A stretch of 64,000 nucleotides of DNA from Escherichia coli O157:H7. GTDB lineage: Bacteria; Pseudomonadota; Gammaproteobacteria; Enterobacterales; Enterobacteriaceae. Where the stretch lies: assembly GCF_013167455.1 (NCBI RefSeq), contig NZ_CP038328.1, one strand, 5' to 3'. Position 1 is the first letter of the stretch; each line of letters begins with the position of its first letter. Positions 32,553-38,500 of this stretch are shown piece by piece. Position numbers: made by a program.

Positions 32553-35500
32553 ATCTCAATATCAGATCTTACATGCGCCGCTTTCGCAGCCATCGTCCTG
32601 GATTGACGGCACCAGATCGTCCTGCGCGTCTTCAGCGCCGTCACGGGTGTTCTGATAATACAGCGTTTTGACCCCGAATTTGTAGGCGGTGAGCAGGTCT
32701 TTCAGCAACTGCTGCATCGGCACTTTTCCTGACGGGAAGCGTGACGGATCGTAGTTGGTGTTAGCAGAGATCGACTGATCGATAAATTTCTGCATGATAC
32801 CCACCAGTTGCAGGTAGCCATCGTTACCCGGCATTTCCCACAGCAGCTCATAGGCGTCGTGCAGATGCTCGTAGTCCGGCACCACCTGGCGCAGAATACC
32901 GTCTTTCGACGCTTTGATGCTGACGTAACCGCGCGGCGGTTCAATACCGTTAGTAGCGTTAGAGATCTGCGAAGAAGTCTCGGACGGCATCAGAGCAGAA
33001 AGCGTGGAGTTACGCAGGCCGTGTGTTTTGATTGACTCACGCAGAGCTTCCCAGTCGTAATGCAGCGGTTCATTAGCGATGGCATCCAGATCTTTCTTAT
33101 AGGTATCGATCGGCAGGATCCCTTTCGCGTAAGTGGTTTCGTTAAACCACGGGCACGCGCCTTGCTCTTTCGCCAGCTCATTAGACGCTTTCAGCAGGTA
33201 ATACTGAATCGCTTCGAAGGTTTTATGCGTCAGGTTGTTGGCGCTGCCGTCGGAGTAGCGTTTACCATGCTTCGCCAGGTAGTAAGCGAAGTTGATCACA
33301 CCAATACCCAGCGTACGACGACCCATCGCTCCACGTTTGGCGGCCGGGATCGGGTAATCCTGATAATCCAGCAGCGCGTCAAGTGCACGAACCGCCAGAA
33401 TTGCCAGCTCTTCCAGTTCATCCAGGCTATTAATTGCGCCCAGGTTGAAAGCAGACAGCGTACACAGCGCGATTTCACCGTTCTCGTCGTTGACGTCGTT
33501 CAGCGGTTTGGTCGGCAGGGCTATCTCCAGGCACAGGTTAGACTGACGCACTGGCGCGATGGCCGGATCAAACGGGCTATGGGTATTGCAGTGGTCAACG
33601 TTCTGAATATAGATACGACCGGTAGACGCACGTTCCTGCATCATCAGCGAGAACAGCTCAACGGCTTTCACACGCTGCTTGCGGATGCTGTCGTCTTTCT
33701 CATATTTGGTATACAGGCGTTCAAACTCTTCCTGATCGGCGAAGAATGCGTCGTACAGCCCCGGTACGTCGGACGGGCTGAACAGGGTGATATCTTCACC
33801 TTTCAGCAGGCGGGTATACATCAGTTTGTTGATTTGTACCCCGTAGTCCATATGACGCACGCGGTTGCCTTCCACACCACGGTTGTTTTTCAACACCAGC
33901 AGGCTTTCCACTTCCAGATGCCACATCGGGTAGAACAGCGTTGCCGCACCGCCGCGCACGCCGCCCTGAGAGCAGGATTTCACCGCAGTCTGGAAATGTT
34001 TGTAGAACGGAATGCAGCCGGTATGGAACGCTTCGCCACCGCGAATCGGGCTACCCAGCGCACGAATACGCCCGGCGTTGATGCCGATCCCGGCACGCTG
34101 GGAAACATATTTCACAATCGCGCTGGAGGTGGCGTTGATGGAATCCAGGCTGTCGCCGCACTCGATCAGTACGCAGGAGCTGAACTGACGAGTCGGGGTA
34201 CGCACGCCGGACATGATTGGCGTCGGCAGCGAAATTTTAAATGTGGAAACCGCGTCGTAAAAACGCTTCACATATTGCAGGCGCGTTTCACGCGGGTAGT
34301 TCGAGAACAGGCACGCAGCAACCAGAATATAAAGGAACTGGGCGCTTTCGTAGATTTCGCCGGTCACACGGTTCTGTACCAGATATTTGCCTTCCAGTTG
34401 CTTAACGGCAGCATAAGAGAAGGTCATATCACGGTCGTGATCGATAAACGTGTCCATCTGCTTGAACTCTTCTTCCGTGTAGTCTTCCAGCAGATGATTA
34501 TCGTATTTGCCCATCTCGACCATTTTCACCACGTGGTCGTACAGCGCAGGCGGCTCAAACTGGCCGTAGGCTTTTTTACGCAGGTGGAAGATCGCCAGGC
34601 GCGCGGCGAGATACTGATAATCCGGCGCATCACGGGAGATCAGGTCTGCGGCAGCCTTGATAATGGTTTCGTGGATGTCAGAGGTCTTGATACCGTCATA
34701 AAACTGAATGTGGGAGCGCAGCTCGACCTGGGAAATCGAAACGTTATGCAGTCCTTCTGCCGCCCAATCCAGAACGCGATGGATTTTGTCGAGATTGATG
34801 CGCTCTGTGCTACCGTCGCGCTTTGTCACCAGCAGATTCTGATTCATGTATGTCGTACCTGTTTTTGGAATTCTTTCCGCAATAGTTTCGTGCAGACTAC
34901 CTGTAGTACGGGAAGCTGCTTAGAACACTATATATAGGGGGTATGTTTGGGATTCACTGCAAGATAGTGTGAAAATGGCCCTCTTGCAAGTGCATAACTT
35001 TGTGGATAACTCAGGAAGGAAAAAGTGGCTTTCGCGCACCTTAGGTCAGACAAGGTGTCCGGGAAAGTCAATGGGAAGAGAAAAATTTGTTATAAATAAC
35101 TGTTCGGCGATTTCTTGAACGGCAGAATAGGTTGGATAAATTGATATAGATGGTTTATTAATCTTTTTGCTAATGATTGCAAAAATTGATCTAAGCACGA
35201 GTCATCACATAATCTGATGTATCAGTTGTGGTCAATATATAAGCGAATGTAAGCGATTGTTGATGTCGAAATGGTTGTTTTCTATTCGGTTATTGTTAAA
35301 TGCGAAGCCATTTTGTTAATTTGCCTTATATTATAAGAAAATTATTCATTACTTTAATTTAGTTTAAATATAACTGGTATCCCTTAAGGTTATTAACTTG
35401 AATTATGACGCACTGATACTATTCATCAAATAATAACAAAATAGCTATTGCATCGGGTTGGACAATTTACAAAAGAAAGATAACCCATATTGTATAATGC

Positions 35501-38500
35501 GTTTAAATATGCCGTCTTATATAAAATGATGGTCAGATTAATATGCGGGTTATCTTTCTACGCAAGGAGTATTTATCTCTACTCCCGTCAATGATTGCAT
35601 CTCTTTTCTCTGCTAACGGTGTCGCGGCGGCCATTGATTTATGCCAGGGATATGATATCAAAGCGAGTTGTCACGCCAGCAGGCAAAGCCTTTCAGGCAT
35701 TACGCAGGTCTGGAGTATTGCCGATGGGCAATGGCTGGTTTTTTCGGATATGACCAATAATGCCAGCGGTGGGGCCGTATTTTTGCAACAAGGAGCGGAA
35801 TTTACATTATCACCAGAAAATGAAACTGGAATGACTCTGTTTGCCAATAACACCGTTTCAGGAGAATATAATAACGGCGGGGCAATATTTGCTAAAGAAA
35901 ACTCAACGCTGAATCTTACGGATGTTATTTTTTCTGGTAACGTCGCAGGCGGCTATGGTGGCGCAATCTATTCTTCTGGTACTAACGATACCGGTGCCAT
36001 CGATTTACGTGTCACTAACGCCGTGTTTCGCAATAACATCGCTAATGACGGCAAAGGTGGTGCAATTTATACCATCAATAATGATATCTATTTAAGTGAT
36101 GATGTTTTTAACAATAACCAGGCATATACATCAACAAGTTACAGTGATGGCGATGGCGGCGCAATCGATGTCACAGATAATAATAGCGACAGCAAGCATC
36201 CTTCAGGTTATACGATAATAAATAACACTGCCTTTACAAATAACACTGCCGAAGGTTATGGCGGGGCGATATATACCAATAGCGCGACGGCTCCCTATCT
36301 TATTGATATTTCTGTTGATGACAGCTACAGCCAGAACGGAGGCGTGTTAGTCGATGAGAACAATAGCGCAGCAGGCTATGGAGATGGTCCTTCCTCTGCG
36401 GCGGGTGGCTTTATGTATCTCGGCTTAAGTGAAGTTACCTTTGATATTGCCGACGGAAAAACGCTGGTTATTGGCAATACAGAGAATGACGGAGCTGTTG
36501 ACTCTATTGCTGGTACCGGGTTAATCACCAAAACAGGTTCCGGCGATCTGGTACTTAATGCAGATAACAATGACTTTACTGGTGAGATGCAGATTGAAAA
36601 CGGTGAAGTTACCCTGGGCCGCAGCAACTCCCTGATGAATGTCGGCGATACGCATTGCCAGGACGATCCGCAAGACTGCTACGGTCTGACGATAGGGAGT
36701 ATTGATAAGTACCAGAATCAGGCAGAGCTAAATGTTGGCTCCACCCAACAAACCTTTGCGCACTCATTGACGGGCTTTCAGAATGGCACTTTAAATATCG
36801 ATGCTGGTGGCAATGTTACTGTTAATCAAGGCAGTTTTGCTGGCACCATCGAAGGTGCTGGTCAGCTCACCATTGCGCAAAACGGCAGCTATGTGCTGGC
36901 GGGGGCGCAGTCGATGGCGCTAACCGGCGATATAGTGGTGGATGCTGGTGCGGTGCTTTCGCTGGAAGGCGACGCGGCAGATCTTGCCGCTCTCCAGGAC
37001 GATCCGCAGTCGATCGTGTTAAACGGCGGTATGCTCGATCTCTCTGATTTCTCCACCTGGCAGAGCGGTACATCATACAAAGATGGCCTTGAAGTCAGTG
37101 GCAGCAGCGGAACGGTTATCGGCAGTCAGGATGTGGTAGATCTTGCAGGCGGAAACGATATGCATATCGGCGGCGACGGGAAAGATGGCGTCTACGTGGT
37201 GATCGATGCGGGTGACGGGCAGGTCAGCCTGGCAAATGACAATCAATACCTCGGCACAACGCAAATCGCTTCCGGTACGCTGATGGTGAGCGACAACTCG
37301 CAGCTTGGATATACCCATTATAACCGCCAGGTTATCTTTACCGATAAGCCACAAGAAAGCGTGATGGAGATTACTGCCAATGTCGATACTCGCTCTACAA
37401 CGACTGAGCATGGGCGTGATATTGAAATGCGCGCCGACGGTGAAGTGGCAGTTGATGCGGGGGTAGACACGCAGTGGGGCGCACTGATGGCTGACAGCAG
37501 CGGGCAGCATCAGGATGAGGGTAGCACATTGACTAAAACGGGGGCGGGTACACTGGAGCTGACCGCCAGCGGTACAACGCAGTCAGCGGTGAGAGTAGAA
37601 GAGGGCACGCTGCAAGGTGATGTTGCGGATATCTTCCCTTATGCTTCGTCGCTATGGGTCGGTGACGGGGCAACGTTCGTTACTGGCGCGGATCAGGATA
37701 TTCAGTCAATTGATGCTACTTCCAGCGGCACTATCGACATCAGCGATGGTACGGTTTTGCGCCTGACCGGGCAGGATACTTCCGTCGCCCTTAATGCCTC
37801 ACTGTTTAACTGCGATGGGACGCTGGTGAATGCCACCGATGGTGTGACGTTGACAGGTGAGCTTAATACCAACCTTGAAACTGACAGCCTGACTTATCTT
37901 TCCAACGTGACGGTTAATGGCAATCTGACCAATACGTCCGGTGCGGTTAGCCTGCAAAATGGCGTCGCTGGCGATACGCTGACGGTAAACGGTGATTATA
38001 CCGGCGGCGGTACGCTACTGCTCGATAGCGAATTAAACGGCGATGACTCGGTAAGCGATCAATTGGTGATGAACGGTAATACTGCTGGCAACACAACTGT
38101 GGTGGTTAACTCCATTACAGGGATTGGTGAGCCGACATCGACAGGCATTAAAGTGGTTGATTTCGCAGCTGATCCCACGCAGTTTCAAAACAATGCGCAG
38201 TTCAGTCTGGCAGGCAGCGGCTACGTCAATATGGGAGCGTATGACTACACGCTGGTGGAAGATAACAACGACTGGTATCTGCGATCGCAAGAAGTAACGC
38301 CGCCATCGCCACCTGATCCAGACCCGACTCCCGATCCTGATCCCACGCAGGATCCTGATCCAACACCCGACCCGGAACCTACGCCTGCTTACCAGCCGGT
38401 GTTGAATGCCAAAGTTGGCGGTTATCTCAATAACCTGCGGGCGGCAAATCAGGCGTTTATGATGGAGCGACGCGATCACGCAGGTGGCGATGGTCAGACG

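What the first reader, a model, noticed from the sequence alone, without database searches (positions are those of the whole stretch)
34848..35542. Long AT-rich nrdA-yfaL divergent control region with DnaA-box and NrdR-box-like elements
The roughly 700-bp intergenic region contains an exact DnaA box (TTATCCACA on the nrdA strand, 35001-35009) and an ACACTATATATAG palindrome reminiscent of NrdR operators on the nrdA side. The yfaL-proximal half (about 35100-35540) is extremely AT-rich, consistent with H-NS silencing of the autotransporter gene.
Basis: partly seen in the sequence, partly recalled or inferred. Interest (0 to 1): 0.2.

Follow-up and report, generated by a model that had tools for sequence, protein, structure and literature searches.

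The report
Known nrdA–yfaL divergent control region
This is the long-studied E. coli control region in front of the ribonucleotide reductase genes, with real DnaA and NrdR binding sites, joined to an AT-rich, H-NS-bound stretch that came in with the neighbouring adhesin gene yfaL; it is genuine but already described.

Summary
Window 34848-35542 is the 695-bp E. coli nrdA(-)/yfaL(+) intergenic region. It holds an exact DnaA box (35001-35009) and the ACACTATATATAG palindrome (34926-38), which is the core of NrdR box 1. The yfaL-proximal 441 bp has 29.9% G+C against 50.9% for the window.

The region has two parts of different origin.

- **nrdAB promoter and leader (34848 to about 35121).** This is the conserved, published promoter. 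It has two adjacent DnaA boxes abutting the -35, a TTGCAA-17-TATCTT promoter, and NrdR boxes 0, 1 and 2. A 2025 study shows that boxes 1+2 are the true operator. Of 79 Enterobacterales loci, 75 keep an exact TTATCCACA upstream of nrdA and 78 keep NrdR box 1.
- **yfaL-associated segment (35122-35542).** It is AT-rich and poorly conserved. In 65 of the 72 loci where ubiG was found it lies 340-640 bp upstream of nrdA; yfaL sits between them in only four. A 2013 paper lists this stretch as a promoter island bound by H-NS in all ChIP-chip studies, and yfaL as a predicted foreign gene.

Side observations: phage P1 carries an annotated "nrdA-like promoter", the ypaB ORF is not conserved, and DnaA boxes sit in a different place in Klebsiella- and Pantoea-type nrdA promoters.

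The parts
34845..34847 (-). nrdA start codon
   Evidence: ORF 32562..34847 (-), 761 aa. RefSeq annotates it as nrdA. Sequence checked.
34848..34957 (-). nrdA 5' leader of about 105-110 nt. The transcription start is inferred at about 34954-34957.
   Evidence: The position is inferred from the -10 hexamer and from my recollection of a 110-nt leader (Tuggle & Fuchs 1986, not read here). B2 strains such as LF82 lack 13 bp of it, at about 34867-34880.
34894..34909 (-). NrdR box 2: GTACTACAGGTAGTCT, with C4, G13 and a central AG
   Evidence: It lies inside the published oligonucleotide nrdAB_1,2, whose box 1+2 pair binds with Kd 113 nM (PMC12176259). The published middle AG identifies this 16-mer. 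Coordinates. C4, A6, T11 and G13 are kept in E. albertii and Pseudocitrobacter. Only the left half is conserved in more distant type-A species.
34925..34940 (-). NrdR box 1: CCCCTATATATAGTGT. A 15-bp linker separates it from box 2.
   Evidence: Sources: PMC12176259. A version with at most 3 mismatches is present in 78 of 79 Enterobacterales loci. It is nearly invariant in the type-A footprint.
34957..34972 (-). NrdR 'box 0': TCACACTATCTTGCAG. This is the old 'box 1', lying over the -10 and the transcription start, and NrdR binds it only weakly.
   Evidence: The box 0+1 pair has Kd above 6000 nM. Position 6 is C, which explains the weak binding (bioRxiv 10.64898/2026.05.11.724285). A 16-bp linker separates it from box 1.
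34961..34966 (-). nrdAp -10 hexamer TATCTT
   Evidence: Read from the sequence. ACTATCTTG is conserved at 90% or more in 21 type-A species. At 8 of 12 matches the promoter is below the threshold of the consensus scan, so one search did not list it.
34984..34989 (-). nrdAp -35 hexamer TTGCAA, with a 17-bp spacer
   Evidence: CACTTGCAA is conserved in type-A species and in the P1 'nrdA-like promoter'.
34989..34997 (-). DnaA box 2: TTATGCACT (8 of 9), overlapping the -35 by one base
   Evidence: (repeat D2). Identical in P1 and P7. The position is conserved as TTGTTCACT in other type-A species.
35001..35009 (-). DnaA box 1: TTATCCACA, an exact match to the consensus
   Evidence: An exact copy lies upstream of nrdA in 75 of 79 loci.
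35029..35067 (-). Imperfect inverted repeat CTTTCCCGGACACCTT...AAGGTGCGCGAAAG. It is probably the published '45-bp inverted repeat' needed for cell-cycle regulation.
   Evidence: Read from the sequence. The link to Jacobson & Fuchs 1998 rests on memory only. It is invariant within Escherichia but weakly conserved beyond.
35067..35121 (-). Distal conserved part of the nrdA upstream region: ATTGAC, an AT-rich palindrome at 35080-35105, and GTTCAAGAAATCGCCGAACAG at 35100-35120. It is the likely zone of the published Fis, IciA and AT-rich activating sites.
   Evidence: These are conserved blocks, and the palindrome is I2.
34975..35118 (+). ypaB, an annotated 47-aa ORF that overlaps the nrdA promoter. 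It is probably not a real gene.
   Evidence: It is annotated. The start codon is CTG in LF82, and E. albertii has a stop after 17 codons.
35122..35542 (.). AT-rich, variable yfaL upstream segment: a 'promoter island' and H-NS binding platform
   Evidence: G+C is about 30%. Identity to the window falls from 81-99% in the proximal part to 46-51% in the distal part in a second Escherichia genome, E. albertii and Pseudocitrobacter. 22 of the 24 differences from K-12 lie at or beyond 35093. 8 of the 25 promoter-like hits in 20 kb fall in 35186-35493. H-NS occupancy is reported.
35186..35213 (+). Candidate yfaL promoter TTGATC-16-CATAAT
   Evidence: The scan found it, and the same hexamers are listed for yfaL in the RpoD genomic SELEX table (PMC3946193).
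35543..35545 (+). yfaL start codon
   Evidence: ORF 35543..39295, 1250 aa. RefSeq calls it the AIDA-I family autotransporter adhesin YfaL/EhaC.

Best explanation
The 695-bp spacer is a composite of two regulatory regions that differ in age and in logic.

1. The nrdA-proximal ~275 bp (34848 to about 35121) is the ancestral nrdAB promoter and leader. A sigma-70 promoter (TTGCAA-17-TATCTT) is flanked upstream by two tandem DnaA boxes, the second touching the -35. According to the literature, low occupancy by DnaA (ADP form, or little ATP form) helps RNA polymerase. High DnaA-ATP spreads onto a weaker site and shuts the promoter. This couples dNTP synthesis to replication initiation. Downstream of the start site, at about +16 to +62, lie NrdR boxes 1 and 2 with a 15-bp linker. 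A tetramer of NrdR loaded with ATP plus dATP binds them and represses transcription when dATP is plentiful. Further upstream conserved blocks, out to about 35121, are the probable Fis, IciA and AT-rich activating elements.

2. The yfaL-proximal ~420 bp (35122-35542) arrived with the horizontally acquired autotransporter gene yfaL, inserted between ubiG and nrdA. It has about 30% G+C, is packed with promoter-like hexamers, and is coated by H-NS. H-NS keeps yfaL largely silent and, according to published work, also dampens nrdAB.

Shown here: the sites, their statistics, their conservation, the insertion and its boundary. Taken from the literature: protein binding and regulatory direction. Inferred: the exact transcription start, and the assignment of the upstream blocks to Fis and IciA.
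For: Identity and annotation of the locus.

DnaA boxes: with literature. The GenBank P1 notes name an 'nrdA-like promoter' and a 'dnaA box'.

NrdR boxes: the published oligonucleotide sequences and Kd values match the window sequence except for one flanking SNP at 34890.

Conservation: 75 of 79 loci have an exact TTATCCACA, and 78 of 79 have NrdR box 1. In the footprint across 21 type-A species, DnaA box 1, the -35, the -10 and box 1 are at 90% or more.

Insertion: ubiG lies 340-640 bp upstream of nrdA in 65 of the 72 loci where it was found. yfaL is present in only 4 loci. There is a sharp homology boundary at about 35121.

AT-richness and promoter-like density.

H-NS occupancy and the foreign-gene label: PMC3661553 and PMC3946193. 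H-NS and NrdR as nrdAB repressors: PMC4009431 and PMC12176259.
Against: - No binding or expression data exist for this particular strain. All protein-DNA evidence comes from K-12, which is 98.9% identical in the proximal part and 95% in the distal part.
- The primary DnaA, Fis, IciA and H-NS footprint papers (Augustin 1994, Olliver 2010, Cendra 2013, Torrents 2007) could not be read. The exact footprints of the third DnaA-ATP box, of Fis and IciA, and of H-NS on nrdAB are therefore not mapped onto the window.
- The 10-mer H-NS nucleation motif is not enriched (77 matches against 64 expected). The sequence-based H-NS argument therefore rests on composition alone.
- NrdR box 2 is only half conserved outside Escherichia and Pseudocitrobacter.
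Confidence: 0.9

Rival explanations
1. The whole AT-rich half is primarily an upstream activating region for nrdA (UP-like element, curved DNA, Fis sites), not a region associated with yfaL and H-NS.
For: The literature names Fis, IciA and an AT-rich element as positive cis-acting sites of nrd. An AT-rich palindrome lies at 35080-35105.
Against: - Conservation stops at about 35121. Beyond that, identity to the window is 46-51% in a second Escherichia genome, E. albertii and Pseudocitrobacter, and 85% in LF82. The nrdA-proximal part is 81-96% identical in the same genomes.
- Taxa without yfaL have only 340-640 bp between ubiG and nrdA, with no counterpart of this stretch.
- The published activating sites fit within the conserved 35010-35121 block.
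Confidence: 0.07
2. The DnaA-box and NrdR-box matches are chance occurrences of short motifs in a long AT-rich spacer.
For: One-mismatch DnaA boxes are no more frequent than chance (32 found, 52 expected). A second exact TTATCCACA lies inside a coding sequence at 48357-48365.
Against: - The boxes lie in the 42% G+C proximal part, not the AT-rich part.
- An exact box is present in 75 of 79 orthologous regions, where about 0.001 per locus would be expected.
- NrdR box 1 is present in 78 of 79 loci.
- Direct binding has been measured on this sequence.
- The NrdR consensus has one hit against 0.10 expected.
Confidence: 0.01
3. Conservation of 34975-35118 reflects a real small protein gene, ypaB, divergent from nrdA, rather than promoter elements.
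For: RefSeq annotates ypaB (47 aa) in most E. coli genomes. P1 annotates a homologous ORF, upfO, starting at the same ATG.
Against: - The start codon is CTG in LF82, and RefSeq does not annotate the ORF in the listed ~89.5%-identity genomes (H12-H14).
- E. albertii has a stop after 17 codons.
- The conserved columns coincide with the DnaA boxes and the -35, and show no codon periodicity.
- Type-A species beyond Escherichia keep the boxes but not the ORF.
Confidence: 0.03

Closest known systems
E. coli K-12 nrdAB promoter region (nrdAp, regulated by DnaA, NrdR, Fis, IciA/ArgP and H-NS)
   Same: It is the same locus. The proximal part is 98.9% identical, and every mapped element (DnaA boxes 1 and 2, -35, -10, NrdR boxes 0, 1 and 2) is identical in sequence.
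   Different: There are only two SNPs in 34848-35092. G34890A flanks NrdR box 2 and explains the one-base difference from the published oligonucleotide. G34978A lies in the promoter spacer and in codon 2 of ypaB.
Phage P1/P7 'nrdA-like promoter' with its dnaA box (GenBank M95666 and AF234173, near hot/upfO)
   Same: A 115-130 bp copy corresponds to window 34971-35100. It has both DnaA boxes, TTGCAA and the start of the spacer. Identity is 83% in P1 and 95% in P7. 235 E. coli plasmid matches also hit this stretch; the one examined (H15) matches 34971-35085 at 78%.
   Different: Homology ends at the -10 and NrdR box 0. The phage copy has no NrdR boxes and none of the AT-rich yfaL part.
H-NS-bound 'promoter islands' next to horizontally acquired genes (Panyukov & Ozoline 2013)
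   Same: The yfaL/ypaB interval is one of the 78 listed islands. It is AT-rich, dense in promoter-like sites, bound by H-NS in all data sets, and lies next to a gene predicted to be foreign.
   Different: The other flank of this island abuts the promoter of an essential, cell-cycle-regulated operon. H-NS spreading could therefore affect a core gene.
nrdA promoters of Klebsiella, Enterobacter, Citrobacter, Pantoea and Erwinia ('type B' in this report)
   Same: The region is homologous and collinear, with the same NrdR box 1 and an exact TTATCCACA.
   Different: In type B the DnaA boxes form an inverted pair about 30 bp apart, immediately downstream of NrdR box 1, where E. coli has box 2. The -10 (TAGAAT) lies about 12 bp further upstream, and the upstream DnaA-box position is degenerate. 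ubiG, not yfaL, is the upstream neighbour.

Membership tests
DnaA-regulated promoter (DnaA boxes) | A 9-mer matching TTATNCACA | tested here: met
   An exact TTATCCACA lies at 35001-35009 (-). The window has 2 copies against 0.41 expected.
DnaA-regulated promoter (DnaA boxes) | A cluster of boxes next to the core promoter | tested here: met
   A second box with 8 of 9 matches starts 12 bp away and overlaps the -35 by 1 nt.
DnaA-regulated promoter (DnaA boxes) | Conservation in orthologous promoters | tested here: met
   75 of 79 Enterobacterales loci have an exact box within 250 bp upstream of nrdA.
DnaA-regulated promoter (DnaA boxes) | DnaA binding, and an effect of DnaA-ATP/ADP on transcription | not testable with these tools
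   This is reported for K-12 in reviews (PMC8203912, PMC13220808). The primary footprint papers are not held.
NrdR operator | Two 16-bp partially palindromic boxes with C4 and G13 (and A6/T11) | tested here: met
   Box 1 is CCCCTATATATAGTGT and box 2 is GTACTACAGGTAGTCT. Both have C4, A6, T11 and G13 (criteria).
NrdR operator | A 15-16 bp linker between the boxes | tested here: met
   The linker is 15 bp, at 34910-34924.
NrdR operator | Location in the promoter or leader of a ribonucleotide reductase operon | tested here: met
   The boxes lie 47-93 bp upstream of the nrdA ATG, downstream of the -10.
NrdR operator | Binding by NrdR loaded with ATP plus dATP | not testable with these tools
   The published Kd is 113 nM for the box 1+2 oligonucleotide, whose boxes and linker are identical to the window (PMC12176259).
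H-NS-silenced xenogeneic segment / promoter island | G+C far below the genome background | tested here: met
   29.9% against 50.9%, in the lowest 0.23% of windows.
H-NS-silenced xenogeneic segment / promoter island | Patchy phylogenetic distribution, or insertion relative to conserved synteny | tested here: met
   yfaL lies between ubiG and nrdA in only 4 of 79 loci. Elsewhere ubiG directly adjoins nrdA.
H-NS-silenced xenogeneic segment / promoter island | An excess of promoter-like sites | tested here: met
   8 sites lie in 35186-35493, against 3.2±1.7 in shuffles of the 1-kb region. They are 8 of the 25 found in 20 kb.
H-NS-silenced xenogeneic segment / promoter island | High-affinity H-NS nucleation motif (TCGATAAATT) | tested here: inconclusive
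   There is one match with 9 of 10 at 35133-35142. Motif counts in the window are not above chance (77 against 64).
H-NS-silenced xenogeneic segment / promoter island | H-NS occupancy in vivo, and derepression in an hns mutant | not testable with these tools
   Occupancy in all three ChIP-chip studies is reported for K-12 and in SELEX. No report of yfaL derepression in an hns mutant turned up in two searches of the paper library.
Protein-coding gene ypaB | An intact ORF in close relatives | tested here: not met
   LF82 has a CTG start, and E. albertii has a stop after 17 codons.

The most novel reading that the evidence does not exclude
The most novel reading left open has two parts.

1. DnaA control of nrdA has been kept across Enterobacterales, but through relocation of the binding sites. 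Type A has the boxes upstream of the -35 (Escherichia, Pseudocitrobacter, Yersiniaceae, Hafniaceae, Pectobacteriaceae, Budviciaceae). Type B has an inverted pair in the leader abutting NrdR box 1 (most Enterobacteriaceae and Erwiniaceae). Escherichia carries type A although its NrdA protein groups with type-B genera. This could mean the promoter segment was exchanged by recombination, perhaps together with yfaL.

2. H-NS repression of the essential nrdAB operon in E. coli may be a lineage-specific by-product of the yfaL insertion next to its promoter.
Probability: 0.3. Interest if true: 0.3.

Novelty: already known. Interest (0 to 1): 0.1.

Why it matters
The region couples dNTP supply to replication initiation through DnaA and to dATP/ATP pools through NrdR, so annotating it correctly has value. 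All of this is established for E. coli K-12, and the window is the same locus with the same sites. This check adds three modest things:
- exact coordinates of each site in the window;
- a clear boundary at about 35121 between the ancestral nrdA control region and the inserted, variable, H-NS-bound yfaL segment;
- a comparative picture showing that the DnaA and NrdR sites are under strong selection while their arrangement differs between enterobacterial lineages.

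Tried and rejected
- **Rfam scan.** Scanning 34000-36500 at E<=1 found no RNA family, so there is no known riboswitch or sRNA in the leader or spacer.
- **Terminators.** No terminator-like sites were found in 34700-35700.
- **H-NS 10-mer motif.** The scan showed no enrichment, so it was dropped as evidence.
- **One-mismatch DnaA-box scan.** Counts were below chance. Box 2 is therefore supported only by its adjacency, its conservation and the literature.
- **Consensus promoter scan.** It did not report the real nrdA promoter, which matches 8 of 12, so the scan is not a test of it.
- **Primary papers.** Attempts to read Olliver 2010, Augustin 1994, Torrents 2007, Cendra 2013, Gon 2006, and Babu 2017 and 2021 failed because they are not held. 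Reviews and GenBank notes were used instead.
- **ypaB as a real gene.** Rejected on ORF decay in relatives.
- **Plasmid hits as a second chromosomal-type copy.** They are the known nrdA-like promoter of P1-family phage-plasmids.

Full report
**What is there**

The window carries, on the minus strand, a 761-aa ORF ending at 34847 (nrdA). On the plus strand it carries a 1250-aa ORF starting at 35543 (yfaL). The spacer between them, 34848-35542, is 695 bp. The spacer is 100% identical to E. coli strain 2017C-4109, whose RefSeq annotation gives the gene order inaA, yfaE, nrdB, nrdA, ypaB, yfaL, ubiG, gyrA. In 5423 of 5426 complete E. coli genomes a match covers at least 80% of it. Against K-12 MG1655 there are 24 ungapped differences. 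Only 2 of them lie in 34848-35092 and 22 lie in 35093-35542. MG1655 (U00096.3) position = 2379712 minus the window position.

**Checking the observation**

- **DnaA box.** TTATCCACA lies at 35001-35009 on the nrdA strand. There are two exact copies in 64 kb against 0.41 expected.
- **Second DnaA box.** TTATGCACT (8 of 9) lies at 34989-34997, starting 12 bp from the first on the same strand and touching the -35. Boxes with one mismatch are not rarer than chance on their own.
- **NrdR-like palindrome.** ACACTATATATAG is at 34926-34938, inside the 16-mer 34925-34940. An idealised NrdR palindrome with up to 3 mismatches occurs once in the window against 0.10 expected.
- **AT-richness.** The stretch 35100-35540 has 29.9% G+C against 50.9% for the window. 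Only 0.23% of 441-bp windows are as low, and the window minimum lies here.

All parts of the observation are confirmed.

**The nrdA side**

Read on the nrdA strand, the order of elements is as follows:

| Element | Sequence | Window coordinates |
|---|---|---|
| DnaA box 1 | TTATCCACA | 35009-35001 |
| spacer | AAG | 35000-34998 |
| DnaA box 2 | TTATGCACT | 34997-34989 |
| -35 | TTGCAA | 34989-34984 |
| spacer | 17 bp | 34983-34967 |
| -10 | TATCTT | 34966-34961 |
| NrdR box 0 | TCACACTATCTTGCAG | 34972-34957 |
| linker | 16 bp | 34956-34941 |
| NrdR box 1 | CCCCTATATATAGTGT | 34940-34925 |
| linker | 15 bp | 34924-34910 |
| NrdR box 2 | GTACTACAGGTAGTCT | 34909-34894 |
| nrdA start codon | ATG | 34847-34845 |

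The 2025 FEBS Journal study of E. coli NrdR (PMC12176259) prints the oligonucleotides it used, and they match this sequence. The one exception is a flanking base at 34890, where K-12 differs from this strain. That study found the following:
- The historically annotated pair, box 0 + box 1, binds NrdR very weakly (Kd above 6000 nM).
- Box 1 plus the newly recognised box 2 binds NrdR loaded with ATP plus dATP at 113 nM.
- Earlier gel shifts showed that mutating box 1 abolishes binding, whereas mutating box 0 does not.

A 2026 preprint adds that box 0 fails because position 6 is C, and that C4 and G13 are the critical positions. Boxes 1 and 2 in the window have C4, A6, T11 and G13.

For DnaA, a 2021 review states that the nrdAB promoter has three DnaA boxes: two high-affinity boxes without nucleotide preference and one specific for DnaA-ATP. 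Low DnaA-ATP or DnaA-ADP at the high-affinity boxes activates transcription, and high DnaA-ATP represses it (PMC8203912). Fis and IciA are named as further regulators. I could not read the primary footprint papers. The positions of the third DnaA site and of the Fis and IciA sites are therefore not mapped.

Three points here rest on inference or memory:
- From memory, the nrdA leader is 110 nt (Tuggle & Fuchs 1986). That would put the start at about 34957, consistent with the -10.
- From memory, a 45-bp inverted repeat is required for cell-cycle regulation (Jacobson & Fuchs 1998). The imperfect repeat at 35029-35067 is the likely candidate.
- The mechanism by which NrdR represses from about +16 to +62 is inferred to be a block to initiation or promoter escape.

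**Conservation**

A scan of one genome per species with the first 200 residues of NrdA returned 80 Enterobacterales loci, of which 79 were usable.
- An exact TTATCCACA on the nrdA strand lies within 250 bp of the ATG in 75 of 79 loci.
- A version of NrdR box 1 with at most 3 mismatches is present in 78 of 79.
- In an alignment of 21 species sharing the E. coli arrangement, the columns at 90% or more are DnaA box 1, CACTTGCAA, ACACTATCTTG and CCCCCTATATATAGTGTT.
- Weaker conserved blocks lie at ATTGAC (35067-35072) and GTTCAAGAAATCG (about 35108-35120).
- NrdR box 2 is conserved only in its left half.
- Beyond about 35121 conservation drops to noise.

**The yfaL side**

In 65 of the 72 loci where it was found, ubiG lies 340-640 bp upstream of nrdA in the same orientation. 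yfaL sits between them in only four loci: a second genome titled E. coli (probably a divergent Escherichia lineage), E. albertii, a Pseudocitrobacter MAG, and isolate RIT691.

Aligning the spacers of the window, K-12, LF82, that second Escherichia genome, E. albertii and Pseudocitrobacter shows near-identity from the nrdA ATG to about 35121. Upstream of that point the sequences diverge abruptly:

| Genome | Identity to window, 34848-35121 | Identity to window, 35122-35542 |
|---|---|---|
| K-12 MG1655 | 98.9% | 95.0% |
| LF82 (B2) | 91.2% | 85.3% |
| second Escherichia genome | 96.4% | 50.4% |
| E. albertii | 89.8% | 51.1% |
| Pseudocitrobacter | 81.4% | 45.6% |

The corresponding YfaL proteins are 71-77% identical to the window's. 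The AT-rich 420 bp therefore travels with yfaL. It is not part of the ancestral nrdA control region.

Published data agree:
- Panyukov & Ozoline (2013) list a 534-bp 'promoter island' between yfaL and ypaB. This is roughly window 35058-35591; the conversion from U00096.2 uses an offset I recall, good to a few bases.
- That island is marked as H-NS-bound in all three ChIP-chip data sets, and yfaL as foreign by three predictors.
- Shimada et al. (2014) mark 'HNS' in the yfaL<>nrdA spacer and list TTGATC-16-CATAAT as the yfaL-side RpoD site. The scan found the same site at 35186-35213.
- Eight of the 25 promoter-like hits in 25001-45000 fall within 35186-35493.
- GadE and GadX are reported to regulate yfaL.
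- H-NS is also reported as a repressor of nrdAB.

The 10-bp H-NS nucleation motif is not enriched, so the sequence argument for H-NS rests on composition only.

**Verdict**

The locus is among the best-characterised promoters in E. coli and is already known. The refinements are:
- a second DnaA box next to the first;
- the revised NrdR operator, box 1 + box 2;
- the boundary at about 35121 between ancestral and inserted DNA;
- the reported effect of H-NS on nrdAB as well as yfaL.

**Side observations**

1. P1-family phages and phage-plasmids carry a 115-130 bp copy of window 34971-35100. It has both DnaA boxes, the -35 and the start of the spacer, at 83-95% identity, and it ends exactly where the -10 and the NrdR boxes begin. 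GenBank already annotates it as an 'nrdA-like promoter' with a 'dnaA box'.
2. The annotated 47-aa ORF ypaB (34975-35118, +) overlaps the promoter. It has a CTG start in LF82 and an early stop in E. albertii, so its conservation is better explained by the promoter elements.
3. The 1102 E. coli records at 80-90% identity include the three listed hits (LF82 among them), which start at query base 33; in LF82 this reflects a 13-bp deletion in the nrdA leader.
4. Across Enterobacterales there are two collinear promoter arrangements. In 26 sequences (type A, the window included) the DnaA boxes lie upstream of the -35. In 49 loci (type B: most Enterobacteriaceae and Erwiniaceae) an inverted pair of DnaA boxes lies directly downstream of NrdR box 1, and the -10 is shifted upstream. 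Escherichia has type A, yet its NrdA is closest to that of type-B genera. I have no explanation for this.

Noticed in passing
window 34971-35100; L003 3001-3115; L004 1501-1615; L005 1560-1615: P1, P7 and SJ46 phages, and 235 places on E. coli plasmid records, carry a copy of the upstream half of the nrdA promoter. It includes both DnaA boxes, the -35 and the start of the spacer, at 78-95% identity, and it ends at the -10 and NrdR box 0. GenBank already annotates it as an 'nrdA-like promoter' with a 'dnaA box'.
   Followed up: yes
window 34975-35118 (+): The annotated ORF ypaB (47 aa) lies inside the nrdA promoter. Its start codon is CTG in LF82 (B2), E. albertii has a stop after 17 codons, and P1 upfO starts at the same ATG. 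It is probably not a real gene.
   Followed up: partly
window about 34867-34880: LF82 lacks 13 bp (GCGGAAAGAATTC) of the nrdA 5' leader. The three listed ~89.5%-identity hits (from the 1102 E. coli records at 80-90% identity) likewise start at query base 33. The effect on expression is unknown.
   Followed up: partly
L008-L083 (type B) against window, L007, L013, L042-L085 (type A), -250..-1 of nrdA: There are two collinear nrdA promoter architectures in Enterobacterales. In type A (26 sequences, the window included) the DnaA boxes lie upstream of the -35. In type B (49 loci) an inverted DnaA-box pair about 30 bp apart lies immediately downstream of NrdR box 1. Escherichia and Pseudocitrobacter are type A, although related genera (Citrobacter, Klebsiella, Enterobacter) are type B.
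   Followed up: partly
window 35122-39295; L006, L007, L013, L037: yfaL and its upstream 420 bp form an insertion between ubiG and nrdA, found in only 4 of 79 species-representative loci. Alleles are very divergent: YfaL is 77% identical in a second Escherichia genome and in E. albertii, 71% in Pseudocitrobacter and 54% in RIT691.
   Followed up: partly
window 40211-40219 (-) and 48357-48365 (-): There are two more perfect DnaA-box matches. TTATTCACA lies in the ubiG-gyrA intergenic region. TTATCCACA lies inside the alpha-2-macroglobulin-family (yfaS-like) coding sequence.
   Followed up: no
window 26016-27879, 59019-59844, 10275-10787: These are other markedly low-G+C stretches (minima 29.5%, 31.1% and 34.9% in 441-bp windows). 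The first covers a hypothetical-protein gene between a LysR regulator gene and glpQ in strain 2017C-4109.
   Followed up: no
window about 32327-32362 (from MG1655 2347350-2347385): K-12 annotates a tiny ORF, yoaM (11 codons), antisense in the nrdA-nrdB spacer. It is not annotated in the strain that matches the window.
   Followed up: no
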